A stretch of 64,000 nucleotides of DNA from a virus. Where the stretch lies: the IMG/VR virus record IMGVR_UViG_3300030110_005581; one strand, written 5' to 3'. The notes beneath the pieces were generated by a model. That model searched no databases. It had not been told where the DNA came from and saw only the letters and a program-made list of their open reading frames with translations. Shown piece by piece: positions 3,154 to 52,250 of the stretch (within the stretch, counting starts at the first letter, position 1; each line of letters starts with the position of its first letter). Position numbers and translations under genes: made by a program.

Positions 3154-3165
3154 ATTTTTCCTTCC

Positions 3166-4158: not shown

Positions 4159-4180
4159 AATAATACTCCTTTTGCTTAAT

Positions 4181-4187: not shown

Positions 4188-4218
4188 TTACTTTTTGTTG
4201 TTTTTTCAATTCTTTATT

Positions 4219-8001: not shown

Positions 8002-8005
8002 TTAT

Positions 8006-8233: not shown

Positions 8234-8248
8234 TTTTAAACTCCTTTT

Positions 8249-31100: not shown

Positions 31101-34100
31101 TTATATAGACCAAACATGTTTGCGATTTGGATCGCATCTGGAGTATCGAACATGCTAACCATGCATTCTAAACTTTTTCTAACCTCCTCCACGTCCGCTT
31201 TTGTTTTTTCTGGGTCTAACAGTGGTGTAGGGTTTGTTTCTAAGCATTTGGATTGTGCCTCTTCATTTGTGAGAGGTAGCGCATTAAAATTCTTTGCTTT
31301 AAAGAGATCTGTCTGAGAGGCGTTATCCCACACAGTCTCCAACATTAAGTTGGCTGCCAAGGGGAAAATGCCTTTAAAGATCAACGAGGGAGTATTGTCA
31401 GCGATCTGAGTGGCCGCCATCATCGCGGTCACCACCGTGCCCTTTGGTATATCGGGATTAAAAAGAAAATAATCAAAAAGTTCCTTCTGAAAATCGTCTA
31501 AATCGAATTTGTCAGCTTCCATTGCAATTTGCCCGGCAGGAGGATATTCATATTCCTTCACTCCACCATTATAAGATATGATTTTAATTTGTGGCGAAGG
31601 AATGCTCATGCCTTTGTGAACAATGTCAGTGCCAGAAAAATTAAAAACCATGTCCAAAGAATAGCTTGTTCCTGGCAAAACATACTCAAAAGAGCCTATT
31701 GCATTTACTGGGTCATAAAAAATCAACTGCTCGTTTTGAGTGTTTGATGCGACAATATCAGAAATTAAACCCCGAAACTTCTTAGCAACTAATTTATTGT
31801 TTTCACCGTCTGTGTCTGCGCTATAACTCTCTTGAGAATTGTTTAACATACCAGTGACTGCCTTCATGTATGCTAATGAAGGGTCGGCAGCTGTAGAGTC
31901 GTTGCCGGCCGCAGACTTAATGCTGTTTAAGAGAGCAGTCATCATGTTAGGGTTAAAGGTTTCTTTTATGAGTGGTTTGTATGCTGCCAAGGTATTATTG
32001 AAACTGTCATCAATTGCTTTGTAGGTTTTATCAACTAGGCGCTCTTGCATAAAAAGTTGTGTTTCGTGAGTTTGGCTTGGCATTAAGGGTTTCATGCCAA
32101 TTTGATCTGGCGCACAAGGTCCGCAGAAAAGTGGCGGATAGAGGCTCTTCATCATATTTGGGTCAATAAATGGCAACATGCTGGTTGCGTCTTCGAGTGC
32201 CTGCTGCTGGTCCCCTTCTGCAATTGCTAAAATATCTTCAGGCCATATAGATTTTTCCAATTCATCGACATTTGTTGGATCACAGAGACCCACTAGTGCC
32301 TCTTGAAAAGCATTATATTCATCTATTGCGTCATCATATATATCGCTATCAATAAGAGAACCAAGATCTAGCAGGAAAGCTTGGGCCTGGTCAGGTGAAA
32401 TAAAACCAGGAGGGAAAGGTAAAATTGTAGTGTTCCCGGTTTCAGGATCTTCTTTCTCATATGTTTGGTTTTCTTTGTTGGGGTCGTAACCAGTTTGCGC
32501 CGCAATCGCAGCCAATGAAAGGCCAGGAAAATTCATTTGAAGCGCCGCGATTGTTCCCTCATCCATAAAGGCCAATGCAGCATCCTCATAACTTCCCTCA
32601 AAAGAATCATCTCCGCATTCTGTTGTAAAAAGCCTCTTTAATTCACTAGGGGAAAATACATCTCCAAGCTTTTCAAACCCATCATACAAAGTTTGAACAT
32701 CCTGATTGAAGAAGTGCTTAGCCTTCAAGTCCCCAAATTTATCCCAAAGCTCATTGTCTCCAGAATCTTTATATATGCTAGAATTTAATATCCAATCCCT
32801 TGGGCTAGTAAGCCCAAATGGAGAACCCGTACCATTGCATAAATCTTGAGTCAAACCACCGTTAAACTGCTCTTTAACGTATTTTAAGACGACCATGGCA
32901 GTCGCATAGATTATGCTCATTGCCATGTCTTTGAGGCCCCTCGCAAAGGATTTCCTGAAGCTTTCTAGTTTGTCTGTGGATTTAAGATAATTTTTGATTG
33001 GATCTACAAATCTGTCAATTGCCAAAGTTCCATTTTGGTCATTATCGTATAATTTATCTTTTGCTGCAGTTGTCATGCCATCAATGCTTTGATCAGTTAG
33101 CTCTTCCACATATTCTAGCATTTTTGTGACAGGGCCATATGAAGCCAATATACAATCACATATTGCATCGCCGGCGACTTCTTCAGCCCAGTCTAGCATT
33201 TCTTGATTAAAATCTCCAGGAGATCTTCCCAACTTCTTTTGCATGTATGGGTCGGAACAATACAGTGGTATTAACTGAACCATGATCTGAGTCTCAGTCC
33301 ATGGCTCTGAAGGGTCTGGTGGAAATCTTTCAGGATATCTAGTGCTGGCGATTTTATATACATCTCCAACGCGGCCCGTAATTTTTTCTTCTAGCTTTGC
33401 AATGGCCAAATCACCGTTTGGCACATTTCTTAAACAAGGATAAAGCTGTTGACGTATTTCTGATATGGGCACTGTCTTTAAGATTGTTTGGCACATGTGC
33501 CTTTTCATGGCGCTGTTTTTAGCACACTTGAAAATAAGAGCAGACGCCATCTTGATTAATTCCGCTATAGGTATACGATTCAGCAATTTATCAAAAAGCT
33601 CCGACATGGACTTAATTTCTCCAAACACAGCCTTTAATAAGTTTTCATCACCAGAATACATATTGGTGACATTCGAAGTGCCGGCAATTAAGTTCTTTAT
33701 ATCCGGAGACATTAAATTTGTAGGATCTTTTATGTACTTTCCTGTAAATAAGAGATCTTTAAAAATGGGATTTTTTAATTGAAGTGGGTCAACCAAAGAC
33801 TCTAATGTTGGCTTTGCCTCTCCATTGTAATTTGTTTCAGGCGTAGGATATACATACGTATTGATAAAATCAAGCCAAGATTGGTGCATTGAAAACAGAT
33901 CTGTGCTATAGTTTCCGCCCGATTTTAAGTATTTTCCATATCTCCTGTTGATCTCAGGCAACATATGTAAGAAGTTATTAATTCTTGGCACCGAAAAAGG
34001 TCCAGAGCCTCTAATTGAGTTTAAGCCTTCTTTTAAAATGTAGGGTGTAATATCGGCACCTTCCTCACACAAGCAATCCGCCACCTCACTAAAAGATACA

Positions 34101-36285: not shown

Positions 36286-39200
36286 CTATTCTTTAGACTC
36301 GCCAGGTTTCCACCCTTTTTTCGGTTTAGTTTTTGATAAATCATAACCACTTCCATCCGCCTTGACCCATGCCTGCCAAATTCGCGGCGATTTTGAATGC
36401 GGACCAGTATAGTCGCATTTCTTTTTCTTAAGATTTGCCAGCGCTTTTTTGAAGCCGGCGCGCGCTGTTTGGTTTTTCTTTGCGACCCTTACGTGATAAT
36501 GATTTTCATGATTTTTTGCCATTGGGAACATATTGTATATAGCTCTTCCTATGGGCCCTTTTAGGCCCTCATCTTCTAATTGTTTAAAGATTTGCCTAAA
36601 TGCTGGGTCGGGCTCTTTCATCCATATTTTAGGATTGTCATAATCTTGAGTTTGGATTTGTTTTATGCGGACCTTAAGCCACTTCCTAAAAGAAGACCCG
36701 GGAAGCTTTCGTGCGTATCCATCTCTTTGTCCAAAAAGAATTTTGCTTTTTTTAAACTTGCCCCCCATTGCAAGAGTTAACAAGCCCATAACAATTGTCT
36801 TGTCATAGTCAACAACAAGACCATTATACTTTGCGGCTTTCTTGGGACTTTCAAAAAGTTGCAGGTGGCCCCCTTTTGTTGTTGTTCCTCGGCCGCTGAG
36901 TACCCTGTAGTTGTTCTTTGCATTGGAGTCTGCTGTGGAATATTTATACCATGTCGGTAAATTTAAATCAAAATCAGCTCCCTCTCTATGGGAAACATGA
37001 CCCCTAACCATGTCAATAGCATTTGCCCATTCTGGAGAAACATCATGTATGATCCATTGTATGCCACTTCTACCATCTTTCATAGTGGCATATGCGTAGC
37101 CATATTTACTAGGCTTCTCTGCTTTACCCCAAATTGGATTTTCTAAAACTTTATCGATCCACGTAGCAACCTGATTGTTGCCCCATTGATAGCCTCTATT
37201 CCAAGAACTTTGCGCTGTATATCTTTTGTTCTTGACGTGCGCTTTTATATCAAGAAGCCCAAGTGGGTTTTTTCCACATTCGACGGTACCAGGGGGCACA
37301 AGTTTTGCATTTCTTGTTTTTTTACCCTTTGCACTATCTTTACATTGTTTCTCGCATGCTTTAAGCCGTCTTGGCTTGTTAGTCTTAGCTCTTTGGTTTT
37401 TCTTTCTTCCTTTCTTGCATTTTACATTAGGATCTTTTAGCCCGTCTTTGTCTGGCAGCTTTTCACCTTTATGGTTGTATGCATTTCCTTCCTCATCATA
37501 CGCAACGGGAACTTTTGCTGGACTGACTGCAATCACCTTTGCTTTCAGTGGGAACTCGCCCTCTTTTATGCCGGGAGAAGCTTTTGCTAAAAGTGACTTC
37601 GTTTTGAAGTAACTATCGAGAGGCTTGGTAGCGCCGCCTCCTGTGTTTAAATTTAAAAATATTCCCTGAAACTTAGTCTTTGCACCGTTAAGGAGCGTAG
37701 TCTCTTTGCATCCATTAAATTTTTTACCTCCAACAAATTTAGGCTCACCGCAACCGTCCTTTTCAAGGAGCTTCGAAACGCCCGAATCTGTAACAGTTTC
37801 CTTATCCGTACTTCTGCTAGTATAAATATGAAATTCAAAATCTTTTCCAGGATTCCAACTGCCCTTATTAGCACCGTAAACCGTGCCAAGGATTGAGTTG
37901 ACACCACTCGCATAAGATGCGTTCAACATATCTATTCTTTTAAGCTTTGTGCTTCCAACTGTTGGACTATTCATTTTTTTCATAAGACCAGCTAAAGAAG
38001 TATATCCTTGCTTAAAGGCCTTGATGTTTACAAATTGAGGATCTGCAGTTGCGCCGAGGCCTTTTTTGGAATCCTTTTCTTTTATTATTCCAAGCACTTC
38101 ATTGTGAAAATTAACAAATGAGCTTTCATTATTACCAAAAGTGGCGTCTTCAATGTTTGTTTTATCAGCAACGTTTAGCTGGGTTGTTACATATACAATA
38201 TTTCTTCCCTGCTGGTCGACCATATTGTGAAGTTGGTTTTGAATAGCCTTCCTAAAGCCATGCCCAGTCCACAAAGTAGGCAAAGGGCCGTTCCCGCTCG
38301 CACCATGAAGAAAATATATCAACTCATAAGGCTTTGACAAATCTACCCCTTGCGGTGCAACAATTGCTGTTTTACCTTTGAGTGCTTTTGTTTCTGCTGA
38401 ATTATAGAGCATTGTACGCCCTTTGAAATCCTCAAATCGAGACTCATCAGACTTAACGATGTCTCCGCTCTTATCTGCAACTTTTATAACTTTTCCAGGA
38501 GTTTTCCCCACTTCAGTTGCGGCTGCAGCGGTTGGGGTGTTCGGCTCCTCAAGCCACGAAACCCAATCGAATTTTACAGAAGATTCAACACCTCTAAAAA
38601 TAAAATTAACCCAGCGGCCGGAGAGTCTTAATGTTTTTGAGCTATTACCATTGATGAAGCTTTCTCCATTTTTTGTTTTCTCCTCTAAGGTTTGAGTAAA
38701 CATATCCTCATCTTCGGGCTTGATATCGGGGCCGACTGTCTGGCCTGATTTTTTATATTTTAAAGCATTGGCATAAAATATTTGCAGCTCGTTCCTTGCA
38801 TATATTAATGGATTCTTTTCTTTCGCTGGTGGGACTCCATTCCACTTGGATGTCATCGCAGACGTCTGTCCTATGTAAGCAGCTACAGCTTTTTTAGTAA
38901 TCGCTGGTGCGTCTTTTGATAAATGAAATTCAACTTCTACCTTGTTGGGGTCTACCGCAATTATAATATCCTTAATATCATTATCATGATACCTGTTGGT
39001 ATCAGTTGAGCTATAATCTCCATTCCATAGCTTGATACTTTTTAGGTTTTTACCAAACTTTTCTAAAAGCTTCATTCTAGCTAAGTTAGAAATCGCAATG
39101 GAGCCGCGGCGGTCACCAACAAGTGTTATGTGCTTAAGCATCTTTTTATCAACACTGAGCTTCTCACTTAATACTTTCTCTATATTACCAATAAATTTAG

Positions 39201-40422
39201 AAATATTTCCATACACATTTTTTTCGCCGGCGCTGTTTATTTCAGCAAACAATGGGCGCCGGTCAAACACATTTTTGCCGTCCCATCCCCATACCATCTG
39301 TTGCCTGTCTCCATATCCAGTTAGGCTGTCGAGCTTACTATCTGCTCTAGGCTTGACTGTTCCATTATTTTCTTTGGACCATGGCATTTCTGCCATTACA
39401 AAAACTAAATTTCTGCGGGCATTGTCAAGTTGAGGGTTGGGCTTTGTCATTTGTGTTATTGTTTTTCCGATCTCATTCCACTCGTTTGCATCGTTTGCAA
39501 ATTTTCCAACATCATGAAAAAAATAAATAACTTCTAGATGATTTGTTGGCCGAACCCCCACGGGCATATATATTAATGTATTTCGACCTTCGCCATCAAT
39601 CATCTTCTCATTATCTTTTGGTCCGTTACCCTCTAACTTGCCAATCCAAACTATTCCCTCAAAATTGCTATTTTTTGCGGGGTCGACTAGAGGCCCTAGC
39701 CAGCTTGAAGCGCCGTCATCAATAAGTTTTTTTTCTGCGTGACCTGCATCTGTATTTAAAGGCAATGCAGAATCAAGGGCATGAACCTTTTTGTTTTTAC
39801 CTTTACAATCTCCGCTAGCCCCCTGGCCAGTGTAAGTTTTCCTACAAGCATCAATACAGTCTTTAAGTTCTTGTGCTATATATCCAGTATCTTTGGGGTC
39901 CAGGGGGCCTGCAAAGTACATTCTAGTGATTGCACCCTTATTTGCCAACTCAACCTTTACAAGGTCTCCTGGCTGGGCTCCTTGGCGTTGAACTAGAGTA
40001 TCTATTGCTTGTATATCTGGAAAGGCATCAATTGCCAGCTTATCGGCCGCAGAGAGCTTGCCCGTAATTTTGCTCGGCTTCTTGAGCATAAAATGTAGCT
40101 CTGGTATATAAACTTTATATGTGTTAAGCCCATATCTCTTAGAACCGCCCCGGGGTTCTGCCAAGGCTATGGCGCCATCTTGCGCCGTGCAATCAAGGTC
40201 AGTGTATAGATTATTAACCTTTAAGAGAACCCCAATCAAAGTTCCAGAAGTTTTAAACTTGTTTGGTGAAAATACCTTGTCTTTAATACGATTGATGATC
40301 GACTGTGGAGTTTCCGAATCTGAATCGATACTCTCCTGATCAATATCATCAACATTAAAGTCATTAAGATATCCTGGGGGCAAGTCTAGTACGAGCGGCT
40401 TTCCCATACTACTTGTCTCCAC
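36286..40422 (-). CDS. Spike/hub-associated protein: OB-fold-like N-terminus, two alpha/beta-hydrolase-like repeats and a MepA-like murein endopeptidase
   Basis: 1378 aa. N-terminal YKVYIPEL..QPGDLVKVEL is gp5/VgrG OB-like. Internal repeats PxGV..ExIYFxH. C-terminal GHVSHREGADFD (H-x6-D) and NHENHYHVRV (HxH) match MepA/LAS zinc peptidases. Confidence 0.65.
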   Translation of the reverse strand: METSSMGKPLVLDLPPGYLNDFNVDDIDQESIDSDSETPQSIINRIKDKVFSPNKFKTSGTLIGVLLKVNNLYTDLDCTAQDGAIALAEPRGGSKRYGLNTYKVYIPELHFMLKKPSKITGKLSAADKLAIDAFPDIQAIDTLVQRQGAQPGDLVKVELANKGAITRMYFAGPLDPKDTGYIAQELKDCIDACRKTYTGQGASGDCKGKNKKVHALDSALPLNTDAGHAEKKLIDDGASSWLGPLVDPAKNSNFEGIVWIGKLEGNGPKDNEKMIDGEGRNTLIYMPVGVRPTNHLEVIYFFHDVGKFANDANEWNEIGKTITQMTKPNPQLDNARRNLVFVMAEMPWSKENNGTVKPRADSKLDSLTGYGDRQQMVWGWDGKNVFDRRPLFAEINSAGEKNVYGNISKFIGNIEKVLSEKLSVDKKMLKHITLVGDRRGSIAISNLARMKLLEKFGKNLKSIKLWNGDYSSTDTNRYHDNDIKDIIIAVDPNKVEVEFHLSKDAPAITKKAVAAYIGQTSAMTSKWNGVPPAKEKNPLIYARNELQIFYANALKYKKSGQTVGPDIKPEDEDMFTQTLEEKTKNGESFINGNSSKTLRLSGRWVNFIFRGVESSVKFDWVSWLEEPNTPTAAAATEVGKTPGKVIKVADKSGDIVKSDESRFEDFKGRTMLYNSAETKALKGKTAIVAPQGVDLSKPYELIYFLHGASGNGPLPTLWTGHGFRKAIQNQLHNMVDQQGRNIVYVTTQLNVADKTNIEDATFGNNESSFVNFHNEVLGIIKEKDSKKGLGATADPQFVNIKAFKQGYTSLAGLMKKMNSPTVGSTKLKRIDMLNASYASGVNSILGTVYGANKGSWNPGKDFEFHIYTSRSTDKETVTDSGVSKLLEKDGCGEPKFVGGKKFNGCKETTLLNGAKTKFQGIFLNLNTGGGATKPLDSYFKTKSLLAKASPGIKEGEFPLKAKVIAVSPAKVPVAYDEEGNAYNHKGEKLPDKDGLKDPNVKCKKGRKKNQRAKTNKPRRLKACEKQCKDSAKGKKTRNAKLVPPGTVECGKNPLGLLDIKAHVKNKRYTAQSSWNRGYQWGNNQVATWIDKVLENPIWGKAEKPSKYGYAYATMKDGRSGIQWIIHDVSPEWANAIDMVRGHVSHREGADFDLNLPTWYKYSTADSNAKNNYRVLSGRGTTTKGGHLQLFESPKKAAKYNGLVVDYDKTIVMGLLTLAMGGKFKKSKILFGQRDGYARKLPGSSFRKWLKVRIKQIQTQDYDNPKIWMKEPDPAFRQIFKQLEDEGLKGPIGRAIYNMFPMAKNHENHYHVRVAKKNQTARAGFKKALANLKKKKCDYTGPHSKSPRIWQAWVKADGSGYDLSKTKPKKGWKPGESKE

Positions 40423-42253: not shown

Positions 42254-42985
42254 TTAATACTCTGTCTCTAGAGAGTTGGAATTTCCAGATCTATACTTCT
42301 GGCCTTTAATTTTATAGATATCAGGAGGCACATTTTTAAATTTATCGGAGTGATATTCTTCATAAAAATTGCCACACTCTGAGGGCGTATATGTAAAAAA
42401 TACTATAGTTCTAGATAAGTTTGAATTATTTCCATATGATGCATGCGGAACATAGCTATCAAACAATATAATGTCTCCAGCATTCGTTGGGCACGCCTCT
42501 AAGTATATGTTTTCATTAAGATCTTGAAAGTTTTCTGTCAACATGCGGTTTGTCTTTTTGCCAAAAAATATACAACCATTTTCCTCGTTAGTGTCACAAA
42601 GCGGAATAGCAACTGAGACATGTCGATTACAATAATTACCCCAACTAGCAGCTATATCTTGGTGTGGCAAAAAGCCTTCCCCGCCGGGATATTTAAAATT
42701 AATTTTATCCTTAAATAGAACAGGAGTATCGCGCAACTTCTCTTGAACGAGAGATAAAAGTTTTGCATCCAAAGACAAGTCTCTTAGACTCCCGTTGTGG
42801 TTTACAAAATATTCTATCCTACTTAATGTCTTTTTGTCTTTTTCAAAATATTTCCACACATAATCTTTTCTATCTTCTTCTGAAATAAGATAGTTTATAT
42901 GCTGTTGGATATTGTCAACCTGCTCAGAAGACAAAAATGACTCAACTTTTTCATACCCAAATGCTTCGTCCCAAGTACTGTTCAT
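42254..42985 (-). CDS. PhyH-family Fe(II)/2-oxoglutarate dioxygenase, PhnY-like
   Basis: 243 aa with HxD (PHQD), a distal His (VPHAS) and the 2OG Arg (SRT). The motifs WKYFE..LSRIEYF, LFKDKINFKYPGG.GF..HQD, NEENGC and GDIILFDSYVPH resemble (from recall) the 2-aminoethylphosphonate hydroxylase PhnY. Confidence 0.75.
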   Translation of the reverse strand: MNSTWDEAFGYEKVESFLSSEQVDNIQQHINYLISEEDRKDYVWKYFEKDKKTLSRIEYFVNHNGSLRDLSLDAKLLSLVQEKLRDTPVLFKDKINFKYPGGEGFLPHQDIAASWGNYCNRHVSVAIPLCDTNEENGCIFFGKKTNRMLTENFQDLNENIYLEACPTNAGDIILFDSYVPHASYGNNSNLSRTIVFFTYTPSECGNFYEEYHSDKFKNVPPDIYKIKGQKYRSGNSNSLETEY

Positions 42986-43554
42986 TAAATTTTCCTGTGT
43001 GCGTTAAATCTTAGAGCCTTGTCGGGTCTCGTATAATAGGCGTCACTAACTTGCCAGCCTTCAAATTCTTCTTTTTGGAATAATAGGTGGTCAGTGGTGC
43101 AAGAGTTTATTGGCAAGTCTCCTATAAAGATACTTTTTTTTGACACTCGCTCCATTTCAGATATCGCCATGTGCACATATTTTTTGTCTGGAAAATAATG
43201 GAACACGCTAAATGAAAAAACAAAATCAAAAGACTTGTCTTCAAATGGCAAATTTGAAGCTTCTGACACAAAAACATTGTTTCCTAGAATGTTACGATGC
43301 TTTTCAATCAAAGATTCCGAATAATCAACACCAACATAGTTACAATCAAAATGCTGCGCTAGCATTCCGGCACCACAGCCGACTTCTAAAATACGAGAAT
43401 CTTTGTTAATTCCCATAATTTTACATATGTTATCTACTACATTGATGGCTGCTTCGCGAAAATTAGTTTTTTCATGACCGTTTAAGAGACAGAGGTCTTC
43501 TGTATTTTCGGCCCCTTTTCGGTTCCAAACCTTTTTCCAATCTGTAGGCATCAA
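42985..43554 (-). CDS. Class I SAM-dependent methyltransferase
   Basis: 189 aa with ILEVGCGAG, VGVDYS and LPFEDKSFDFVFSFSVFHY. Confidence 0.9.
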   Translation of the reverse strand: MMPTDWKKVWNRKGAENTEDLCLLNGHEKTNFREAAINVVDNICKIMGINKDSRILEVGCGAGMLAQHFDCNYVGVDYSESLIEKHRNILGNNVFVSEASNLPFEDKSFDFVFSFSVFHYFPDKKYVHMAISEMERVSKKSIFIGDLPINSCTTDHLLFQKEEFEGWQVSDAYYTRPDKALRFNAHRKI

Positions 43555-46286
43555 TCATTATCCTCATAAATCTTGTGATTAAAAGATACGAGGCCCTTCT
43601 TTCCTAAGCTATTACAATTCGGGGTACCCCATAATTCCTCGAAGAACGCAAATGAAGTAAAGGTGCCAACATCATTGTACCAATACTCATTCATATCTGA
43701 GTGTTGATTCCCTTGAGGGTAAAAGCTTTTAAATAGCAACTTTGCCTTATTGTAATTTTCTTCGCTTAAAAATTGTTCTTTGTGTTCTTGTCCGATCATG
43801 GATATACAGTCACCAACATCTGCTCGACGAACTGTTTCTCCATCACTAGATCTAACATGATTGCCCCATGGTTGCTGGTAGTGGCAAGTTGCGGATGTGT
43901 GTTCAGAGAGGACAAACTTCTCCAAGTCATTTTTGCTTACATTTACTAAATCGCCACAAACCAGCACACAGTCTCCATCAATGGAAAGTGCGGCCTTAAA
44001 CGTACTTCGAATTTTATCGTCTTCTGGATTTAAAACTTGCACATGAGGATAACTTTGCTTAACGTGATCAATTAAATCCGTGTTTTCAGAGCTGGCGACA
44101 ACGTAAGTTTTAGTGTTTTCTATATCGCACTCATCTAACAAATTATTAATCAGAGGCTTTCCTTTGAACGGCTCTAAGTGCCTGTTTCTGTTAGGTTTTG
44201 GGGGCCCTCCTGCTAAAATTACAATGTTCTTAAACCTGGGTTTTAAAAACTCTTTTACCATGTTTACGTCTCGAATATCTTTATCTTCGCCTCTAGTTGA
44301 TTTCATTTTTACCATCCCCTGCAGGGACAAAAACTTTAAACCGTGTGCGTAGATGTGTTTTTTTGAATTATATAAGATATCTCGCGCATCATCAACATAA
44401 TATCTGAGGTATGGATTGTGAGAAGAAACATTCTCAGTGAATGGAATTGTGTTTGATGGCAAGTGAATAACATCAAAATCGCGGCAGGCGCGTTTTCCAT
44501 ACAGCGACAGCGGAGCACTACCTCCCACACAAAAATCTTCCAAGTCCAGATCGCTATTTTCAATTACGTGCTTAGTCTCTTTTACAAACTGCTTAATGTT
44601 TGGTGTATTGAAGGCACCCACCTTTGAGGTATTTATGAACTCTAAAGTAGGTTCATGGAATGCAATAGTTGCATTTCTCCATGCCTCTTCGTAAGTGTCA
44701 GTAGTGTGTACGCTTGGCTTCCCAACGCCAATAATATCTCTAATTTCATTTTTGACGCGCGTAGCTGTTTCCAGACCATCGCATTCAAATAAGATAACCT
44801 TTACATTATTTCCTTTTGAGAAATTTAAATTAGCCTGTTCGTGCGCTCCAGGGTATCCATTCGCTTCATTGCCAAGCCACGCTTCGTCAGAATAAGAAGA
44901 GATGACATAATTTAATCTACCAGTGTCACTAAGTTCAATATCCTTTTGATATACAACAGAGACATTGTTTTTTGCAAAAATCTCAGAGATTTTATCAAAA
45001 TGAGGCTCGCAATGGGCATAAAGAGACGTTACAAACACATGCTTCTTTAGTCTCATGTATTCTAGTGCCATGGCATCCGCGGTATTTCTGTCCAGGCCCG
45101 TTGGGACAATATCCTTCTTGTTTAAAAAATAATCCGCAGAACACATCAATTGTCCTGCATCTGGGGCACTTTCTTTGCAAATAAGGGGCGTACCATAGGT
45201 AATAGCAGCTGCGGTGCGGTGGGCCCCATTTAAAAGCATGTGGAGACCACTGACAGGGACAAATGATTTTTCTTCATCAAACCCTGTTGTCTTTATATCA
45301 TCCAAAATCGAATGGTATGCATTATAAAAATCTTCTAAATTATTTTTAGCAGGCCTCTTTTCGGTAAATCCACCCCACACTTCTAAGTGATTTTCATACA
45401 CTGATTTTGCAAAAAAGCTTTCAACGCCCTTTTCGCGATGTCGGGCATACAAAGTCTTTGCTGGCAAATCAAACCGCCAAGCAGTTAAGAGTTCGGTTGC
45501 ATCGTCAATAACAAACCTATCTTTATATTTGCTTTTAATCCCATAGGCTCTAGAATATTTAGGCTTGCGGCGGATCTCTGATTCATATGACAATTGTTTT
45601 TTGCGCTTCTCTGGCACTACATGGTCGTTATTATCATGAAGATTGTAAACATATATTAACTCTTTGACAAAAGATATTTTGTCTCCAGCCATCTCTAGCA
45701 TGGGAAACATAAAAGCCAAGTCCCAAGCTGCTTCGTAAAAATTGCCTTCTTTGTTTTTAAGATCTTCTATTTTAATTTGCTTCCATAAATGGTGCTTGAA
45801 AGTCCTCAAAGCTGAAGTCATCCATGGTGAATTTCTGTAAGAGCGATTCCTTATTATTTTTTTAGGCACTGCTTTTTCACAAAATTTGCTACGCTCACCA
45901 GAAGGATAAAGCACATGGCTTCCATAAGTGAGCCAACAATCATCTTTATCATAATATTTTTTCAAAAGAGATAATACTTCTCTATTTGCAAACCAATCAT
46001 CTCCATCTAGCGTAACAATAACGTCTTCGTCATCGGGACTAGATTTGATCACCGCTTTATAAATATTTTCTAGGGCGCCCACATTCTTGTCATTCTTTAT
46101 GAAAATAAATTTATCATTTCCTTCAATTTCCTTCTCCACGATAGAGACAGTATTGTCGGTAGAGCAATCGTCAATCAGAACACATTGGAAATTATCATAA
46201 TCCTGAGCCTTCACGCTTCTAATACAAGCCTTGATCCACTTTTCTACATTGTAGAAGGGTACAATTATTTTAAAATGCATTTTCAA
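43551..46286 (-). CDS. Multidomain protein: GT2 + ParB/Srx-like + NDK-like + Pol-beta-type NTase + NTP-transferase
   Basis: 911 aa (the ATG at 46280 fits the SD better). GT2 motifs IIVPFYN..IDDCSTD..LDGDDW. LLNGAHR at aa 353, VHTTDTYEEAWR at aa 527, GGSAPLSLYGKRACRDFD at aa 588, IVILAGG..GKPLI..VCGD at aa 690. Confidence 0.75.
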   Translation of the reverse strand: MKMHFKIIVPFYNVEKWIKACIRSVKAQDYDNFQCVLIDDCSTDNTVSIVEKEIEGNDKFIFIKNDKNVGALENIYKAVIKSSPDDEDVIVTLDGDDWFANREVLSLLKKYYDKDDCWLTYGSHVLYPSGERSKFCEKAVPKKIIRNRSYRNSPWMTSALRTFKHHLWKQIKIEDLKNKEGNFYEAAWDLAFMFPMLEMAGDKISFVKELIYVYNLHDNNDHVVPEKRKKQLSYESEIRRKPKYSRAYGIKSKYKDRFVIDDATELLTAWRFDLPAKTLYARHREKGVESFFAKSVYENHLEVWGGFTEKRPAKNNLEDFYNAYHSILDDIKTTGFDEEKSFVPVSGLHMLLNGAHRTAAAITYGTPLICKESAPDAGQLMCSADYFLNKKDIVPTGLDRNTADAMALEYMRLKKHVFVTSLYAHCEPHFDKISEIFAKNNVSVVYQKDIELSDTGRLNYVISSYSDEAWLGNEANGYPGAHEQANLNFSKGNNVKVILFECDGLETATRVKNEIRDIIGVGKPSVHTTDTYEEAWRNATIAFHEPTLEFINTSKVGAFNTPNIKQFVKETKHVIENSDLDLEDFCVGGSAPLSLYGKRACRDFDVIHLPSNTIPFTENVSSHNPYLRYYVDDARDILYNSKKHIYAHGLKFLSLQGMVKMKSTRGEDKDIRDVNMVKEFLKPRFKNIVILAGGPPKPNRNRHLEPFKGKPLINNLLDECDIENTKTYVVASSENTDLIDHVKQSYPHVQVLNPEDDKIRSTFKAALSIDGDCVLVCGDLVNVSKNDLEKFVLSEHTSATCHYQQPWGNHVRSSDGETVRRADVGDCISMIGQEHKEQFLSEENYNKAKLLFKSFYPQGNQHSDMNEYWYNDVGTFTSFAFFEELWGTPNCNSLGKKGLVSFNHKIYEDND

Positions 46287-47106
46287 TCACCTCTGCTATC
46301 TCTTTTCTTTTTTCGATAAAAACATCTATCAACTCTAAGCCCTTCTTTTTAAACCATGGCTCTTTCGTCGCACCAATTAAATTGTTTGTTACGAGGCCCA
46401 TGTTCATCATTCTGGCTTCGACAACTATTCTAGAAAAGGTTTCCGGAGTACGTGGGAAGAATATTAAATTTTTATTTTTTGAAAGATTTTTTAAAAACAA
46501 ATTTGGAGGGGCTGGTTCAATCAACTCATAATCTATTTTTTTAATTTTACAATATTCCACTGATCCTAGCGTGTTTTTGTGTGGGATCGGAGAGTTCATA
46601 ATCGAACTTTTCTCACTCTTTGAACCCTGCGATAGTTCTTTCAAGAGCGCCAACGTCTCTAGTGACCACAAATTTCCACTCAAATTAACAATATTGTCAA
46701 GTGATAGATTTGAGTTCACAATGTCTGCATGAAATTTAGTTTGACACAAGACCGCTTTAGCATTCTTGTAGAAATCATAATTTACTATTTCAGACTTGGG
46801 TGCAATAAAATTTTCATAAATCGCTGGATTTCTGCTTTTGAGATATTTGTGGTCGTGCTCATAAATTACATACGGCACTTTTCCGTTTGTGATCTTCTCT
46901 TTCAGCGATGGCACTAAGTTTATAAAATTACCTACGATTAAGCCAGAAACATCAGATAGCATTTGTTCAGTAAGTTTATGGCTCTGCACAGAGGTAACTT
47001 TGTTACCCCTGCGTTTTAAGATGCCGATCAACTCTTCATTGCTTAATTCGCCTCCCCCAACTATGTGTTCGACAAAAAAATCAGCGACAAAGAGCATTTC
47101 ACTCAT
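46270..47106 (-). CDS. GT-B fold glycosyltransferase-like protein
   Basis: 278 aa with an N-terminal VGGGELSNEEL and PETFSRIVVEAR resembling the E-x7-E motif of GT4 enzymes. Confidence 0.65.
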   Translation of the reverse strand: MSEMLFVADFFVEHIVGGGELSNEELIGILKRRGNKVTSVQSHKLTEQMLSDVSGLIVGNFINLVPSLKEKITNGKVPYVIYEHDHKYLKSRNPAIYENFIAPKSEIVNYDFYKNAKAVLCQTKFHADIVNSNLSLDNIVNLSGNLWSLETLALLKELSQGSKSEKSSIMNSPIPHKNTLGSVEYCKIKKIDYELIEPAPPNLFLKNLSKNKNLIFFPRTPETFSRIVVEARMMNMGLVTNNLIGATKEPWFKKKGLELIDVFIEKRKEIAEVIENAF

Positions 47107-48391
47107 ACGTTTCCTCGTTTAACTCGTCAAGCCAGCCTTGGACATCCATATTTTCTTCTGGCTCTTTTACATACTCCGTTAGGCAGTTAGCAAAAGCTGT
47201 ATATTGACCCTCTTCACTGAAATTCTTCAATATCCACTTTTTAAGATCCTTGGCGTGTTTCTTGAACCTTCCGTAGTCCTTATACATCTCTCGCAACTTC
47301 ATCTTGTAGGAACCCTGCTTTGGATATGCCCAAAGAGAGCCGCGCTCTAGAACCCCATCCCAAACTGCATGCTCGGGGATTGGCTCCAGGTCGTATTCGA
47401 CGCGGGCAAAGTGAGGCTTCATCTTTTCCTTTCCGCTTTTTTTGTCCTTTTTTGGTGCAAAAAGAAAATCAACGTGACCGCTCCATTCAGGAGCTAAAAC
47501 TGGCATTCCGTTGTAGGCAGCTTCAAATAATGGTAAACCAAAGCCTTCGCCATGTGTCAGAGAAACAAGCGCATTTATTTTAGGGTGTTTATAGAGTGAA
47601 TCCATTTCTTGATCTGACATGTCTCCGTGCAAGAGATATACTTTGCACTGTCTGTTTTCATATTGATTCAGCATTCCGGCCAATACAGTCTGCATATCTT
47701 CCCTATCCAGCAAAGAATTACCACTTGAGAAAGTTTTTAAGACTAGTCCAACATCCGGATTATCGATAAATTCTTCCACAAACCATCTAACAGTGTTTTC
47801 CAAGTTCTTTCTTGGGCCCCACTGTGCCACAGTCAAGAAATTAAAATCTGTCTCAATATTGAGATTTAAATCTACTTCTTCATGTTTTTTAACTGGATAG
47901 TGCACCACTTCAATGTCTTTATTACATCTCAGCTCTGCCTTTTCGCCAGTTCTATTGTCGATGCCGTCGTACACGCTATTTAAAAAGACTTGTTTTGAGT
48001 GTTCTGAAACGACAACGATCTTGTTCATAAAATTAGCTTTTTCCAGCCATACCGGGGCGACCCTACTAGTCTCTATCCCCGCTGTAACGCCGATATTAAT
48101 CGGGGCCATCGGCTGCCATTCATTGGGGATTGTTACTTGAAGGCTGATATCATATTGAGGCTTTCCGCCGCTTCGATGATGGTAGACAGCTGTTTTTTGA
48201 ATCAATTCATCAATCCAAGCCCTTTCCTCATCATCTCCCGATATCCACCCACACTTGCCCCAATTAACAGGTATAACATGTATATCATATTTATCCTCAA
48301 CACTACGCAATGCCCTCAAGACAAATCTGCCGTGCTCTCCATACCCAGAACGGGTCAATACTGGTGCTCTTACTATTACTTTTTGTTTCAT
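47099..48391 (-). CDS. Glycosyltransferase family 4
   Basis: Start revised to MKQKV at 48391 (TAATG coupling, SD GAGG). Motifs RSGYG, RKNLE and THGEGFGLPLFEA. Confidence 0.88.
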   Translation of the reverse strand: MKQKVIVRAPVLTRSGYGEHGRFVLRALRSVEDKYDIHVIPVNWGKCGWISGDDEERAWIDELIQKTAVYHHRSGGKPQYDISLQVTIPNEWQPMAPINIGVTAGIETSRVAPVWLEKANFMNKIVVVSEHSKQVFLNSVYDGIDNRTGEKAELRCNKDIEVVHYPVKKHEEVDLNLNIETDFNFLTVAQWGPRKNLENTVRWFVEEFIDNPDVGLVLKTFSSGNSLLDREDMQTVLAGMLNQYENRQCKVYLLHGDMSDQEMDSLYKHPKINALVSLTHGEGFGLPLFEAAYNGMPVLAPEWSGHVDFLFAPKKDKKSGKEKMKPHFARVEYDLEPIPEHAVWDGVLERGSLWAYPKQGSYKMKLREMYKDYGRFKKHAKDLKKWILKNFSEEGQYTAFANCLTEYVKEPEENMDVQGWLDELNEETYE

Positions 48392-49671
48392 TATAGTTTC
48401 CTCATTTCCCACGATTTGTAGCCGCGGCGTGTATCCCAAGATCCCATCTCTTCGTGAATCATGGTTAAAGTCTCATCCCAAGAATTGCAATAATTTTCAA
48501 AATTATAATTTTTTACAACATGCTCTCTTCCTAGTTTGCCCATTTTTTGTCGCTCTTCTTTGGGCATTTCATAAAGCTTAACCAAGGCATCAACCACATC
48601 TTTTCCGCTCACTCGGTCTTCGTAGATCCATGGAATTTCTTGAGAACCGATTATTGCTTTAGCGGCAGGCTCAATACCAACACCAAACCAATTTTCTCCA
48701 TCAGTCACCTGCTCTTGCAAACCGCCGGTCATATTAACAATAATCGGAGTTTCGCAAGACAGCGATTCTAAAGTTCCTAGACCAAAACCTTCTGCGTCAG
48801 CTACATTGATAGTGGCATCGCACATATTGTACATAAGGGAAAGTACCATTGGATCGACCTTGTTTTGAGAAAACAGAACCTCGCCATTTACTAAGCCCAG
48901 ACTTTTAATAATCGCCTCAAGGTCTTGTCCGTGGGGGTCCTTTACATCAGTGTGCATAAGCAAAGATGCCTTATCGTGCCCCACCTTATCCAAAAACTCT
49001 TTAAACCAGTAAATCAAGGATCCACTATGTTTTCTCCTAGCATTTCTATTGTTCCAAAATACCAAAAATTTATCTTCATCATAGCTGTTTCCAAATGATT
49101 TTCCAAAAGAATTCTTAGCGAATTCTCGTACTTCACCTGCATCATGGCGAGAAAAGATTTGAGAATCCACTGCATGGGGAAGATATAAAGATTTTACTTT
49201 TGGCGCGACATCCTTAACACACTTATCTGTGACTTTTGAGATACATGCAATGAAGTCATTTGATTCATAATATTTCCTATTAAACATTGGCGAAGGGCCA
49301 TTATCCCACACATGGTAATAAACCATTGGCATAAGTGGGCGAATTTCGTGCTCCATTTCCCACAACCAACCCCAAAATCTAGGATCTGTCATAAACCATA
49401 AAATATCTGGCCTCTCTTTTCTTAAGACAGACCTCAACAATTCTTGATTTCCGTAACCATCAACTGGGAGTGTAACCCAATCTTTACCAAACTCTTCAGT
49501 TTGAAGTGGCTTATAATCATGGTGCTTCATCGCACCACCCAGACTGAAAAAAGTATATCTTCCAGTTCTCAAAAGTGACTCAATCATATATTTTGTTTGA
49601 GTGCCCACACCAGAAGGCGCAAAAGGCATATCACTTAATGTTAAAATTTTAATTTTCTTTTGTGTTTCCAA
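48391..49671 (-). CDS. Glycosyltransferase family 4
   Basis: 426 aa with SGVGTQT, RNARRK and AEGFGLGTLESLSCETPII. Confidence 0.88.
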   Translation of the reverse strand: METQKKIKILTLSDMPFAPSGVGTQTKYMIESLLRTGRYTFFSLGGAMKHHDYKPLQTEEFGKDWVTLPVDGYGNQELLRSVLRKERPDILWFMTDPRFWGWLWEMEHEIRPLMPMVYYHVWDNGPSPMFNRKYYESNDFIACISKVTDKCVKDVAPKVKSLYLPHAVDSQIFSRHDAGEVREFAKNSFGKSFGNSYDEDKFLVFWNNRNARRKHSGSLIYWFKEFLDKVGHDKASLLMHTDVKDPHGQDLEAIIKSLGLVNGEVLFSQNKVDPMVLSLMYNMCDATINVADAEGFGLGTLESLSCETPIIVNMTGGLQEQVTDGENWFGVGIEPAAKAIIGSQEIPWIYEDRVSGKDVVDALVKLYEMPKEERQKMGKLGREHVVKNYNFENYCNSWDETLTMIHEEMGSWDTRRGYKSWEMRKL

Positions 49672-50458: not shown

Positions 50459-50818
50459 TTACACCCCTTTTGTGGATGGTTTATTTTTTTTACCCCTCGA
50501 TCGACGGGCTGAAGTAGTGTTCTGGGGGATGTGTTTTACTGTTTTCTGCTCGATCGGTGGCTTTGTAACAGTTTCTTTTTTGGCAGCCTGCAGTTTTAAG
50601 ATCCACTCTCCACTAGCATCTTCTTTTGTTCGGAAATTGCTAATAGAGTCAGGCCCAACAATACTCTCCACTTTTAAATCAGGATGTTGTTTTTTAAACT
50701 CCGCAAGAACAGAATCTTTTTTGATTATAGCTTTCTGGTCTGGGGCCGGCCTTTTCCCGGACCAACCTAAAGATTTGGTTATTATTACAGTAGTCTTATT
50801 TTTAAATTTAATATTCAT
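50459..50818 (-). CDS. Basic hypothetical protein
   Basis: Start revised to MNIKFK at 50818 (SD AGGGG). Lys-rich. Confidence 0.55.
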   Translation of the reverse strand: MNIKFKNKTTVIITKSLGWSGKRPAPDQKAIIKKDSVLAEFKKQHPDLKVESIVGPDSISNFRTKEDASGEWILKLQAAKKETVTKPPIEQKTVKHIPQNTTSARRSRGKKNKPSTKGV

Positions 50819-51527
50819 TTTTATACCCCTTTTGAGTGTGATTGATTTCAACATTTTCTAATATGTCATTGATTTTCTTATATAGTGTAGGACTTATGTC
50901 TTTTAAATAGAGGCGATCTCTTACAAAATAATTTTCAAATCCGTTTGCAAAATATTCATTAATGCTTGTAATTGCATATGGAGAATAAAAAAGCCCCATA
51001 GCTAAGGTTTGCAGTGTCGGATATCCAACTACGTTATAGAGATAATAATCCATCTTTTTATTATATTCAATATTATTAAACATATCTTTTGATGGTTCGA
51101 ACCCCTCTTGGTCAAGAAGTTGATACAGAGCTTTGCGCTTTGCTAAAAACTCACTTTTAAGCGAATCATCAAAATAAATTTCTTTACCGTAAGTTTCCTC
51201 TACAGCATGCGCCATTTCATGCACAATGTCATCAACCATATCTTCTTCATTTTGTTGGTCATTGGTTACGTACAGCGCACCATCTTTATATTTTGCATTA
51301 AACGGCAGTCCATCAGAATTGAAAGCGCTAAAGTCACCGACATATATCGCATCTACGTTGCGTATAAGCGATTTAGGCACCAATTCTTCAACATCACCCA
51401 GAACGCTCTGCAAATCAAAACCATCGGGAAGTTGGTCCTTTAATAAAACAAGCTTGTCTCCGTATATAAAGCGCTCTTTGCTATTTTGTTGAGCCATGGC
51501 TGAACTTTCGATAATATAATTTTTCAT
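50808..51527 (-). CDS. Zincin metallopeptidase-like protein (anthrax-LF-like motif set)
   Basis: VHEMAH (HExxH) plus downstream SINEYFANGF. Start revised to MKNY at 51527. Confidence 0.6.
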   Translation of the reverse strand: MKNYIIESSAMAQQNSKERFIYGDKLVLLKDQLPDGFDLQSVLGDVEELVPKSLIRNVDAIYVGDFSAFNSDGLPFNAKYKDGALYVTNDQQNEEDMVDDIVHEMAHAVEETYGKEIYFDDSLKSEFLAKRKALYQLLDQEGFEPSKDMFNNIEYNKKMDYYLYNVVGYPTLQTLAMGLFYSPYAITSINEYFANGFENYFVRDRLYLKDISPTLYKKINDILENVEINHTQKGYKNEY

Positions 51528-51528
51528 G

Positions 51529-51792
51529 TTAAATGATACCATCCTTTCTCATCATTTTTTCACCTTCATCGAAATCAAAAACGGCTTGCTGATATCCTCT
51601 AATAAAATTTTCTTCAGCGACAGCTAAAAGAAATTCTGGAAACTCCTCTGCCACCGTCTTGATGATCATTTCAACATTGACCTCATCATTTTCAGGATTA
51701 AGTTTATTTCCTACATAATCAACAAGCCACTCTTTTAGTTCATTTGTTTTTTCTACCGGCTTTAGTAGATCTGGATTTTCATCGATACTCAT
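51529..51792 (-). CDS. Hypothetical protein
   Basis: 87 aa, acidic, tightly packed in the operon. Confidence 0.6.
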   Translation of the reverse strand: MSIDENPDLLKPVEKTNELKEWLVDYVGNKLNPENDEVNVEMIIKTVAEEFPEFLLAVAEENFIRGYQQAVFDFDEGEKMMRKDGII

Positions 51793-52221: not shown

Positions 52222-52250
52222 ATAATACAACATTATATTTTATCTGTCAA
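52222..52250 (-). promoter_or_regulatory. Near-consensus sigma70 promoter heading the DoxX-to-dioxygenase operon
   Basis: TTGACA (52250-52245), 17 nt spacer, TATTAT (52227-52222). Confidence 0.8.

What the first reader, a model, noticed from the sequence alone, without database searches (positions are those of the whole stretch)
43551..46286. Five-domain activate-and-transfer fusion enzyme
One polypeptide strings together a GT2 domain (aa ~1-250), a ParB/sulfiredoxin-like domain (NGAHR), an NDP-kinase-like domain (VHTTD..EEA.R with a candidate phospho-His527), a Pol-beta-type NTase (GGS..LYG.R...DFD) and a LicC/MobA-like NTP-transferase (ILAGG, GKPLI, GD) (motifs seen, fold names by recall). 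Together they could phosphorylate a small molecule, nucleotidylate it and transfer it to a glycan, making a self-contained donor supply chain. I know of no characterised protein with this architecture.
Basis: partly seen in the sequence, partly recalled or inferred. Interest (0 to 1): 0.8.

Follow-up and report, generated by a model that had tools for sequence, protein, structure and literature searches.

The report
Five-domain phage glycan-decorating enzyme
An uncultured marine phage encodes one 909-residue protein that joins a sugar-adding enzyme, a widespread but never-studied three-part nucleotide-handling module, and an enzyme that probably activates phosphonates, so it points to an unknown step in how viruses and microbes decorate sugar chains.

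Summary
Window 43551-46280 (-) is one intact ORF, probably starting at the ATG at residue 3 (909 aa), and all five recalled folds were recovered with tools.
- GT2: Pfam E 7.9e-25.
- ParB/Srx-like: profile-profile P about 1e-7, with NGAHR aligned on ParB's GxRR.

Three things are new.
- The three middle "domains" form one rigid, roughly 420-aa module (pLDDT 96, pTM 0.94).
- The module has no Pfam model. It has about 1,960 cluster representatives in phages, giant viruses, bacteria and apparent eukaryotes. It stands alone or is fused to, or next to, GT2, GT8, GT10, GT31, GT1-like or FkbM enzymes.
- In related phages the C-terminal domain sits beside a complete 2-aminoethylphosphonate pathway (PepM, Ppd, aminotransferase). 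That pathway is absent from this window.

The architecture is secure. The "activate-and-transfer" chemistry is plausible but unproven, and the module's reaction is unknown. The scan also noted a GT2-ParB/NTase fusion on another genome.

The parts
43551..46280 (-). Whole gene: five-domain protein, 909 aa from the ATG (ORF listing extends it to a TTG at 46286). Its start overlaps the stop of the upstream gene by 11 nt. Its stop overlaps the start of the downstream methyltransferase.
45537..46280 (-). Domain 1, aa 3-250: family-2 glycosyltransferase (GT-A fold) with a DxD-type motif, LDGDDW, at aa 93-98.
   Evidence: Pfam PF00535 E 7.9e-25, 88.2 bits against a cut-off of 23.3. PDB sequence hits to GT2 enzymes. 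Motif position.
45045..45503 (-). Module part A, aa 262-414: ParB/Srx-like nucleotide-binding domain preceded by a helical extension. [N/D]G-x-H-R at aa 353-357, with G354 and H356 invariant. R271, D273, K277, Y297, H300, E309 and K314 are also conserved.
   Evidence: hhalign against a diverse ParB_N profile: Prob 91-94%, P 1.6e-7 to 9.3e-7, 54 columns, NGAHR aligned on GxRR; the other two module parts as controls gave P 0.09-0.36. Conservation.
44655..45044 (-). Module part B, aa 415-544: NDK-like (ferredoxin-like) domain. His527, Asp530, Lys512, Arg516 and Tyr465 are near-invariant.
44223..44609 (-). Module part C, aa 560-688: Pol-beta-fold nucleotidyltransferase domain. GGS at 588-590, D603-x-D605, conserved His623, and a C-terminal K-x-x-R-x-E-x-KD-x-x-D helix motif at aa 662-673.
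43554..44222 (-). Domain 5, aa 689-911: MobA/GlmU/IspD/PntC-like NTP-transferase (GT-A-like Rossmann fold). N-terminal loop ILAGGPPKPNRNRH, a GD motif at 778-779 and an invariant C-terminal DND.
46270..47106 (-). Conserved 278-aa partner gene of unknown family, with an invariant EHDHKY motif. It is translationally coupled upstream. In other lineages it is fused N-terminally to the GT2-module protein.
   Evidence: No Pfam, PHROG or PDB match. Present upstream in L002, L005, L006, L143 and L168. A single 946-aa ORF joins it to GT2 and the module in L159. The 982-983-aa proteins P0019 and P0020 show the same fusion.
47099..49671 (-). Two GT4 (GT-B) glycosyltransferase genes, 47099-48439 and 48391-49671, in the same co-directional block.
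   Evidence: Pfam Glycos_transf_1 and PHROG 2170. Syntenic in relatives.
42254..43554 (-). Downstream tailoring genes that overlap the fusion gene's end: a SAM methyltransferase (42985-43554) and a PhyH-family Fe/2OG dioxygenase (42254-42985).
   Evidence: Pfam Methyltransf_11 E 7.8e-18 and PhyH E 3.4e-21. In relatives they lie between the fusion gene and the PepM cassette.

Best explanation
This is a soluble, five-domain enzyme of a phage-encoded glycan assembly line: two GT4 genes, the 278-aa partner, this protein, a methyltransferase and a dioxygenase.

Shown:
- The N-terminus is a GT2 glycosyltransferase.
- The middle 420 residues are one rigid module made of a ParB/Srx-like NTP-binding domain, an NDK-like domain with a conserved histidine (His527), and a MenT/AbiEii-type Pol-beta nucleotidyltransferase domain. 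All three keep their candidate active-site residues.
- The C-terminus is a MobA/PntC-like NTP-transferase.

Inferred:
- The C-terminal domain condenses CTP with a small phosphonate or phospho-alcohol. The most likely substrate is 2-aminoethylphosphonate or a hydroxylated or methylated derivative made by the neighbouring PhyH and methyltransferase. The product would be a CMP/CDP-activated donor.
- The module carries out NTP-dependent phosphoryl or nucleotidyl chemistry on the sugar that the GT2 domain installs. Its NTase-fold domain is the best candidate for attaching the activated group, or an NMP or phosphate, to a sugar hydroxyl.
- The ParB-like and NDK-like pair binds NTP and relays phosphate through His527.
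- Because this window lacks PepM, Ppd and the aminotransferase, the substrate would come from the host or from genes outside the window.
For: Fold assignments.

One-module behaviour: the same 420-aa unit is matched end to end in stand-alone proteins of about 410-470 aa and in fusions with other GTs. The AF2 pTM is 0.94.

Catalytic-residue conservation across 77 sequences: G354 and H356 100%, R357 99%, K512 100%, H527 99%, D530 96%, D603 97%, D605 95%, H623 97%.

Glycan context:
- GT10 lies directly downstream in Pelomonas, in L140 and in ten phage loci.
- Giant bacterial proteins contain FkbM, the module, GT10 or a GT1-like domain, and GT2 domains in series.
- Giant-virus 'glycosyltransferases' contain the module.

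Phosphonate link:
- Homologues of the C-terminal domain, whether fused or separate, are followed by PepM in every locus long enough to judge. That is eight IMG/VR loci representing four of the five distinct lineages that carry the homologue, plus L002-L005.
- The gene after Ppd is a class-V aminotransferase.
- PntC enzymes are known to come from PF12804 and to be fused to or adjacent to Ppm (PMC8942020).
- Fusion of the PntC-like domain directly onto the module's C-terminus is Rosetta-stone evidence for coupled function.
Against: - No PepM, Ppd, aminotransferase or PF01467 gene occurs anywhere in the 64-kb window.
- The module occurs in many loci with no cytidylyltransferase nearby: ten GT10-type phage loci, Pelomonas and L142. 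Its general reaction therefore cannot require a CMP/CDP donor.
- The NTase domain's nearest solved neighbours transfer NMP from NTP (MenT, LnuA, ANT) rather than phospho-alcohols, which is what LicD and FKRP do. hhalign against LicD found nothing, although that profile held only two sequences.
- The NDK-like domain lacks the Lys of NDK's KPD motif and does not reach the Pfam NDK threshold.
- Relatives also carry a second candidate cytidylyltransferase (PF01467), which could be the real PntC.
- There are no biochemical data.
Confidence: 0.45

Rival explanations
1. The module is a self-contained, NTP-dependent glycan kinase or O-nucleotidyltransferase. It phosphorylates or NMP-ylates a sugar hydroxyl directly from ATP or CTP and works independently of the C-terminal domain. 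The PntC-like domain then feeds a different, still unidentified, phosphonate transferase.
For: The module occurs widely without any cytidylyltransferase and with many GT families. Its nearest solved NTase neighbours use NTP directly, and two of them (LnuA, ANT(2'')) modify sugar-like hydroxyls. ParB/Srx-fold small-molecule kinases exist (SerK and SbnI, discussed in PMC12704722). Unannotated genes of 245-290 aa lie between the module and the PntC-like gene in L151 and L159 and could be the real transferase.
Against: This does not explain why the PntC-like domain is fused directly to the module in about a dozen proteins. The need for three nucleotide-handling domains for one phosphorylation is also unexplained. 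No phosphorylated or nucleotidylated glycan product is known for any family member.
Confidence: 0.3
2. The module regenerates donors for Leloir glycosyltransferases. The NDK-like domain would turn the released NDP back into NTP, the ParB-like domain would phosphorylate a free sugar, and the NTase domain would re-form the NDP-sugar. This would relieve product inhibition for whichever GT is attached.
For: It would account for fusion or adjacency to GTs that use different nucleotide sugars: GT2, GT8, GT10, GT31 and GT1-like. The NDK fold and catalytic His are retained.
Against: To my knowledge, known sugar-1-phosphate nucleotidylyltransferases are Rossmann/GT-A-like or HIT enzymes, none Pol-beta fold. 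Fusions to SAM-dependent FkbM methyltransferases do not fit. NDK's Lys12 equivalent is missing. One conserved module is unlikely to serve UDP, GDP and dTDP sugars alike.
Confidence: 0.1
3. The operon modifies phage DNA bases by glycosylation or hypermodification rather than building a glycan. The module would activate a base substituent, as kinases do in 5-hydroxymethyl-pyrimidine hypermodification.
For: The cluster lies between DNA-metabolism genes (PhoH, a PD-(D/E)XK exonuclease) and late genes. ParB-like domains are usually DNA-associated. A PurZ-like gene in the window hints at unusual DNA chemistry.
Against: Family members occur in bacterial polysaccharide megasynthases. They also occur next to GT10, GT41 and type I secretion genes, in giant-virus glycosyltransferases, and in apparent eukaryotic proteins that have hydrophobic N-termini and GT31/Fringe domains. 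Relatives carry sugar-nucleotide and AEP pathways typical of surface glycans.
Confidence: 0.05
4. The module is a non-catalytic regulatory or scaffolding unit, for example a nucleotide sensor that gates the attached glycosyltransferase, as NDK-like domains do in RP2 or radial-spoke proteins.
Against: The residues expected for catalysis in all three parts are near-invariant: His527 and Asp530, D603-x-D605, and G-x-H-R. Stand-alone forms are common, so the module does not need a fused partner.
Confidence: 0.08

Closest known systems
PntC phosphonate cytidylyltransferase (Treponema denticola PntC-AEPT, PDB 6pd1/6pd2) and the PepM-Ppd-AEPT pathway
   Different: Sequence identity is only 12-14%. 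GlmU, TarI, IspD and Rv0371c score equally well. This window lacks the AEP genes. Here the domain is fused to a GT2 and the tri-domain module, not to Ppm or AEPT.
LicA/LicC/LicD phosphocholine decoration pathway, with TarI/TarJ/TarL-type and FKRP/fukutin CDP-alcohol transferases
   Same: The logic is the same: kinase, then cytidylyltransferase, then an NTase-fold phosphotransferase acting on a glycan. The C-terminal domain has the LicC/TarI fold, and an NTase-fold domain is present.
   Different: No detectable sequence relationship to LicD, and LicD/FKRP structures were not among the top NTase matches. The candidate 'kinase' here is ParB/Srx plus NDK-like, not a choline-kinase fold. All parts are in one polypeptide.
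Nucleoside diphosphate kinase (including mimivirus NDK, PDB 2b8p)
   Different: No Pfam NDK match. The Lys of KPD is missing and the Kpn-loop region is different. The domain is embedded between two other domains rather than forming a free hexamer or tetramer.
ParB/Srx-fold NTP-binding proteins (ParB CTPase, sulfiredoxin, serine kinases SerK and SbnI, DndB, GmrSD N-domain)
   Same: The core (alpha, beta, beta, G-x-x-R, alpha, beta) aligns with NGAHR on GxRR. The motif resembles Srx GCHR and DndB DGQHR (motifs from my own knowledge).
   Different: Below the Pfam ParB_N threshold, so it was missed by the 2025 survey of the fold, which was seeded on PF02195 (PMC12704722). No DNA-binding HTH. It carries an extra N-terminal helical extension with its own invariant R, D, K, Y and H residues.
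MenT/AbiEii/TM1012 (DUF1814-like) nucleotidyltransferases and the antibiotic O-nucleotidyltransferases LnuA and ANT(2'')
   Different: Not a toxin-antitoxin component. It is always joined to the ParB-like and NDK-like parts. A conserved His occupies the place where a third carboxylate is expected.
Multi-domain viral glycan enzymes such as chlorovirus PBCV-1 A064R (two rhamnosyltransferase domains plus a methyltransferase; from my own knowledge)
   Same: A virus-encoded, soluble, multi-domain enzyme that builds and tailors a glycan without host machinery.
   Different: A064R has no nucleotide-activating or phosphotransfer domains. None of its domains resembles the tri-domain module.

Membership tests
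Glycosyltransferase family 2 (PF00535) | Pfam model matched above the gathering threshold | tested here: met
   88.2 bits against a cut-off of 23.3, E 7.9e-25, aa 7-133
Glycosyltransferase family 2 (PF00535) | DxD-type metal/nucleotide-sugar motif after the fourth strand | tested here: met
   LDGDDW at aa 93-98, conserved in all GT2-fused homologues
ParB/Srx superfamily | Profile similarity over the core, with the G-x-x-R phosphate-binding motif in register | tested here: met
   hhalign Prob 91-94%, P 1.6e-7 to 9.3e-7; NGAHR on GxRR; controls P 0.09-0.36
ParB/Srx superfamily | Pfam ParB_N (PF02195) gathering threshold | tested here: not met
   No hit at E up to 1 for the protein, nor for any of 77 family members at E up to 0.1
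ParB/Srx superfamily | Structural superposition on a solved ParB/Srx domain | tested here: inconclusive
   NDK and NTase matches filled the lists, so residues 1-160 of the model were barely tested. Only weak BFVD rows name ParB/Srx proteins, at probability about 0.5 or lower
Nucleoside diphosphate kinase (PF00334) | NDK fold | tested here: met
Nucleoside diphosphate kinase (PF00334) | Catalytic histidine in an H-x-x-D context | tested here: met
   His527 aligns with the NDK His; H in 76 of 77 sequences, D530 in 74 of 77
Nucleoside diphosphate kinase (PF00334) | Pfam threshold and the N-terminal KPD lysine | tested here: not met
   No Pfam NDK hit. The position aligned to Lys of KPD is F/P. It is therefore NDK-like, not an NDK family member
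Pol-beta nucleotidyltransferase superfamily (MenT/AbiEii/TM1012-like) | Fold | tested here: met
Pol-beta nucleotidyltransferase superfamily (MenT/AbiEii/TM1012-like) | hG[GS] followed after 9-13 residues by D-h-[DE]-h | tested here: met
   GGS 588-590, then D603-F-D605. D603 is present in 75 of 77 sequences and D605 in 73 of 77. In register with AbiEii, P 0.0021
Pol-beta nucleotidyltransferase superfamily (MenT/AbiEii/TM1012-like) | Third catalytic carboxylate on the following strand | tested here: inconclusive
   A conserved His623 (75 of 77) follows the third strand. No invariant acidic residue was identified there
MobA-like NTP-transferase (PF12804) | Pfam model match | tested here: inconclusive
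   The window's own domain scores E 0.016, 15.9 bits, below the cut-off of 27. Eleven of 30 close homologues match, best 1.2e-5
MobA-like NTP-transferase (PF12804) | Fold plus the N-terminal glycine-rich, basic nucleotide loop | tested here: met
PntC phosphonate cytidylyltransferase | Genomic coupling to PepM/Ppd/AEP transaminase | tested here: not met
   Absent from this 64-kb window. Met in relatives: all eight evaluable IMG/VR loci and L002-L005
PntC phosphonate cytidylyltransferase | CTP + AEP to CMP-AEP activity | not testable with these tools
   Needs an enzyme assay
LicD/FKRP phospho-alcohol transferases | Sequence or structural relationship of the NTase-fold domain | tested here: inconclusive
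   hhalign P 0.24 against a profile of only two LicD sequences. Not listed among the top 50 structural rows, which NDK matches dominated

The most novel reading that the evidence does not exclude
The ParB/Srx + NDK-like + NTase unit is a new kind of glycan-modifying enzyme. It would install a phosphate-, phosphonate- or nucleotide-linked substituent on sugars by a three-site NTP-driven relay through a phospho-histidine. It is used by phages, giant viruses, bacteria and eukaryotes alongside many glycosyltransferase families. Marine phages would couple it to their own 2-aminoethylphosphonate pathway to make phosphonoglycans.
Probability: 0.3. Interest if true: 0.85.

Novelty: new variant of a known kind. 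Interest (0 to 1): 0.68.

Why it matters
About two thousand sequence clusters, many of them viral, carry a large, well-folded, catalytically conserved module that no database names. It always travels with glycan-building enzymes, so a common step of glycan decoration is probably still unknown. In marine phages the module is physically fused to a PntC-like activating enzyme and sits next to a complete AEP pathway. A 2022 inventory found no phosphonate genes in RefSeq viral genomes or in 364 huge-phage genomes; the only viral PEP mutase it detected was in one giant-virus metagenome-assembled genome (PMC8942020). If these phages make phosphonate-decorated glycans, that bears on marine phosphorus cycling, on phage-host surface recognition, and on the open question of which enzyme transfers phosphonates onto glycans. 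The module is soluble and predicted with very high confidence, so its chemistry can be tested directly.

Tried and rejected
- Direct Pfam, PHROG, NCBIfam and PDB sequence searches of the whole protein found only the GT2 domain.
- A PDB profile search with the module alignment gave a single marginal NDK-family hit (NME5, E 2.3).
- The first hhalign against a narrow chromosomal-ParB profile was weak (P 0.0054). It became convincing only with diverse ParB_N sequences.
- hhalign against GmrSD_N aligned only the motif (P 0.055).
- hhalign of the NTase part against NTP_transf_2 (P 0.04, wrong register) and against LicD (P 0.24) gave nothing.
- tblastn against 50,697 GenBank phage records found the GT2 part only, so no cultured-phage homologue of the module was seen.
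- The window's own assembly is not held, and the nearest record, G001, has neither the protein nor PepM. Whether PepM lies elsewhere in this genome could not be checked.
- The contig of the 98%-identical homologue ends just after the methyltransferase.
- The 278-aa partner gene looked to me like a small GT-B enzyme: a GGGE motif near the N-terminus and an E-x7-E-like motif near the C-terminus. Neither a PDB profile search nor hhalign against the neighbouring GT4s supported this.
- Literature searches for this domain combination returned nothing.
- The promoter-like site at 52222-52250 is a consensus match only, and such sites are no more frequent than in shuffled sequence.
- Complex prediction was not used. 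No binding claim is made.
Full report
**The gene.** The minus-strand frame 43551-46286 is open for 911 codons. Homologues start MHFKIIVP, and the ESM Atlas holds the protein from residue 3, so the likely start is the ATG at 46280, giving 909 aa. The start overlaps the stop of an upstream 278-aa gene by 11 nt. The stop overlaps the start of a downstream methyltransferase, which in turn overlaps a PhyH-family dioxygenase. Two GT4 genes lie further upstream. All are co-directional. The best sigma-70-like site lies at 52222-52250, but such sites are no more frequent than in shuffled sequence. The window looks like an uncultured marine phage. It has a baseplate-wedge gene, PIN-PhoH, a PD-(D/E)XK exonuclease, a late-sigma-like gene and very long ORFs without PHROG matches. 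Its closest relatives are Tara and other marine metagenome contigs.

**Direct searches.** Pfam, PHROG, NCBIfam, PDB sequences and 50,697 GenBank phages recognise only residues 3-250, as a GT2 (PF00535, E 7.9e-25). Residues 255-911 were blank.

**Homologues of residues 255-911.** An exhaustive HMMER search against 1.84 billion representatives found 1,961 proteins at E up to 1e-3 and 649 at E up to 1e-30. Nearly all matches cover query positions 8-427, that is aa 262-681, as one block.
- Many are stand-alone proteins of 410-470 aa, annotated 'hypothetical protein' in Roseateles, Paucibacter and Pelomonas.
- Others carry the same block fused to GT2, GT10 (PF00852), GT31/Fringe (PF01762/PF02434), an EryCIII-like GT1 (PF06722), Glyco_transf_7C or FkbM methyltransferase (PF05050).
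- Bacterial giants of 1,800-4,600 aa combine the module with FkbM (in two of the three scanned), a GT10 or GT1-like domain, GT2 and TPR; two of them also have a Methyltransf_24 domain.
- Structure-based Atlas and BFVD searches add Nucleocytoviricota proteins (Catovirus, Yasminevirus, Mimivirus LCMiAC01), some called 'glycosyltransferase' and some fused to an Exo_endo_phos domain.
- None of 77 members hits any Pfam family meaningfully.
- In 300 other sampled Pseudomonadota genomes there was one full-length match and one partial match. The family is sporadic in that phylum and, by Atlas taxonomy, rich in viruses.

**Structure of the module.** AlphaFold2 with a 77-sequence alignment gave pLDDT 96.2 and pTM 0.94 for aa 255-690, one compact body.
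- ParB/Srx-like part. The structural lists did not test the N-terminal part, because the other two domains filled them. I built ParB_N profiles from genome hits instead. A narrow one gave P 0.0054. A diverse one gave P 1.6e-7 to 9.3e-7 (Prob 91-94%) with NGAHR on GxRR, while the other two module parts scored 0.09-0.36 as controls.

All three candidate active sites are 95-100% conserved in 77 sequences.

**The C-terminal domain.** Residues 686-911 also occur as free proteins of about 225 aa.
- NTP_transf_3 matches 11 of 30 homologues, and the window's own copy at E 0.016.
- The AF2 model has pLDDT 95.7.
- Its best Foldseek PDB hit is PntC-AEPT, the phosphonate-specific cytidylyltransferase, at E 3.9e-9.
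- By VIA-align, GlmU (17.0), Rv0371c (16.7), PntC (16.0) and TarI (15.9) are effectively tied.

The fold is therefore certain and the substrate is not.

**Comparative context.**
- In marine-phage relatives the block GT4, GT4, 278-aa gene, GT2-module is conserved.
- The 278-aa gene is fused in frame to GT2-module in L159-L161 (a 946-aa ORF) and in P0019 and P0020.
- Downstream there are two largely exclusive arrangements among 25 IMG/VR loci.
  - (A) A homologue of the C-terminal domain, fused or as a separate gene, is followed directly by PepM and a split Ppd, in most of these loci by a gene that is a class-V aminotransferase where tested, and often by a PF01467 cytidylyltransferase. PhyH and a methyltransferase are nearby. 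There are nine such loci from five distinct lineages. PepM is present in all eight whose contig is long enough.
  - (B) A GT10 gene replaces all of these, in ten loci. One of them is L143, whose module is 91% identical to the window's.
- PepM, Ppd and AEPT form the core 2-aminoethylphosphonate pathway. PntC enzymes are reported as PF12804 or PF01467 proteins fused to or beside Ppm (PMC8942020).
- The window keeps the PntC-like domain, the methyltransferase and PhyH, but tblastn finds no PepM, Ppd, aminotransferase or PF01467 gene in its 64 kb. The gene after PhyH is the homologue of the gene that follows the cassette in relatives, so the cassette is missing at the syntenic position.
- The rest of the genome could not be examined.

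**Interpretation.**
So is the idea that the C-terminal domain activates a small phosphorus compound, AEP in particular.
- What changes is the status of the middle. It is one evolutionary and structural unit that serves glycan enzymes of many families in all domains of life and in two virus realms, usually with no cytidylyltransferase nearby. Its reaction must therefore run on common metabolites, most simply NTPs.
- Its NTase part is of the NMP-transferring MenT/AbiEii/LnuA kind.
- I therefore give 0.45 to a coupled model. In it, PntC-like activation is followed by transfer or NTP-dependent modification by the module on the GT2-installed sugar, with His527 as a phosphoryl relay.
- I give 0.3 to the module being an independent glycan kinase or nucleotidyltransferase. 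Donor regeneration, DNA modification and a purely regulatory role receive less weight.

None of the chemistry is shown.

**Novelty.** No solved structure, Pfam family or paper found here describes the module. The 2025 survey of ParB-CTPase folds was seeded on PF02195 and makes no mention of glycosyltransferase, NDK or nucleotidyltransferase fusions. The scan itself had flagged a GT2-ParB/NTase fusion on another genome, and this same operon.

Noticed in passing
window 62719-63714 (-): A 331-aa protein matching Adenylsucc_synt (E 2.2e-84) but about 100 aa shorter than bacterial PurA. From my own knowledge this is typical of PurZ, the enzyme behind 2-aminoadenine (Z) phage genomes.
   Followed up: no
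L002/L003/L004, L005, and L144, L146, L151-L153, L159-L161 (relatives, not the window): Marine phage contigs encode a full 2-aminoethylphosphonate pathway (PEP mutase, split phosphonopyruvate decarboxylase, class-V aminotransferase) plus one or two cytidylyltransferases next to the glycan genes. A 2022 inventory found no PEP mutase in RefSeq viral genomes or in 364 huge-phage genomes, only one in a giant-virus MAG (PMC8942020).
   Followed up: partly
L143:4201-6357 compared with window 43551-45524: A contig whose module is 91% identical to the window's continues into a GT10 gene instead of the PntC-like domain. Exchange therefore happens exactly at the module's C-terminal boundary.
   Followed up: partly
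L140/L141:1-3800: Next to a stand-alone module with GT25 and GT10 genes lie a PPDK_N-type protein, a Peptidase_C26/GATase and two NTP_transf_3 genes. From my own knowledge this set recalls the Campylobacter O-methyl phosphoramidate pathway (Cj1418, Cj1417, Cj1416).
   Followed up: no
L006/L007:14328-15515: A 395-aa RuBisCO-large-subunit-like protein sits inside the phage glycan island, between a sugar nucleotidyltransferase and GT10, aminotransferase and epimerase genes.
   Followed up: no
window 56878-59025 (-): A 715-aa protein with no Pfam hit whose residues 430-596 match PHROG 'cytidyltransferase' families (E 1.4e-7). It may be another nucleotide-activating enzyme.
   Followed up: no
window 13291-23928, 28106-35200, 36286-40422, 8249-12154, 4219-8001 (-): Five very long ORFs (3,545, 2,364, 1,378, 1,301 and 1,260 aa). 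The 3,545-aa ORF's DNA has no near match among GenBank phages, and the 1,378-aa ORF has no Pfam hit. The phage lineage appears undescribed.
   Followed up: partly
L001 (Pelomonas sp. V22) 3052-12150: The bacterial stand-alone module lies directly after a GT41-TPR gene and a type I secretion set (ABC, HlyD-like, OEP), and overlaps a GT10 gene. This suggests glycosylation of a secreted protein.
   Followed up: no
window 50808-51542 (-): A 244-aa protein with sub-threshold matches to zinc-metallopeptidase families (ATLF E 1.4e-4, Peptidase_M90). It is conserved in position in relatives.
   Followed up: no
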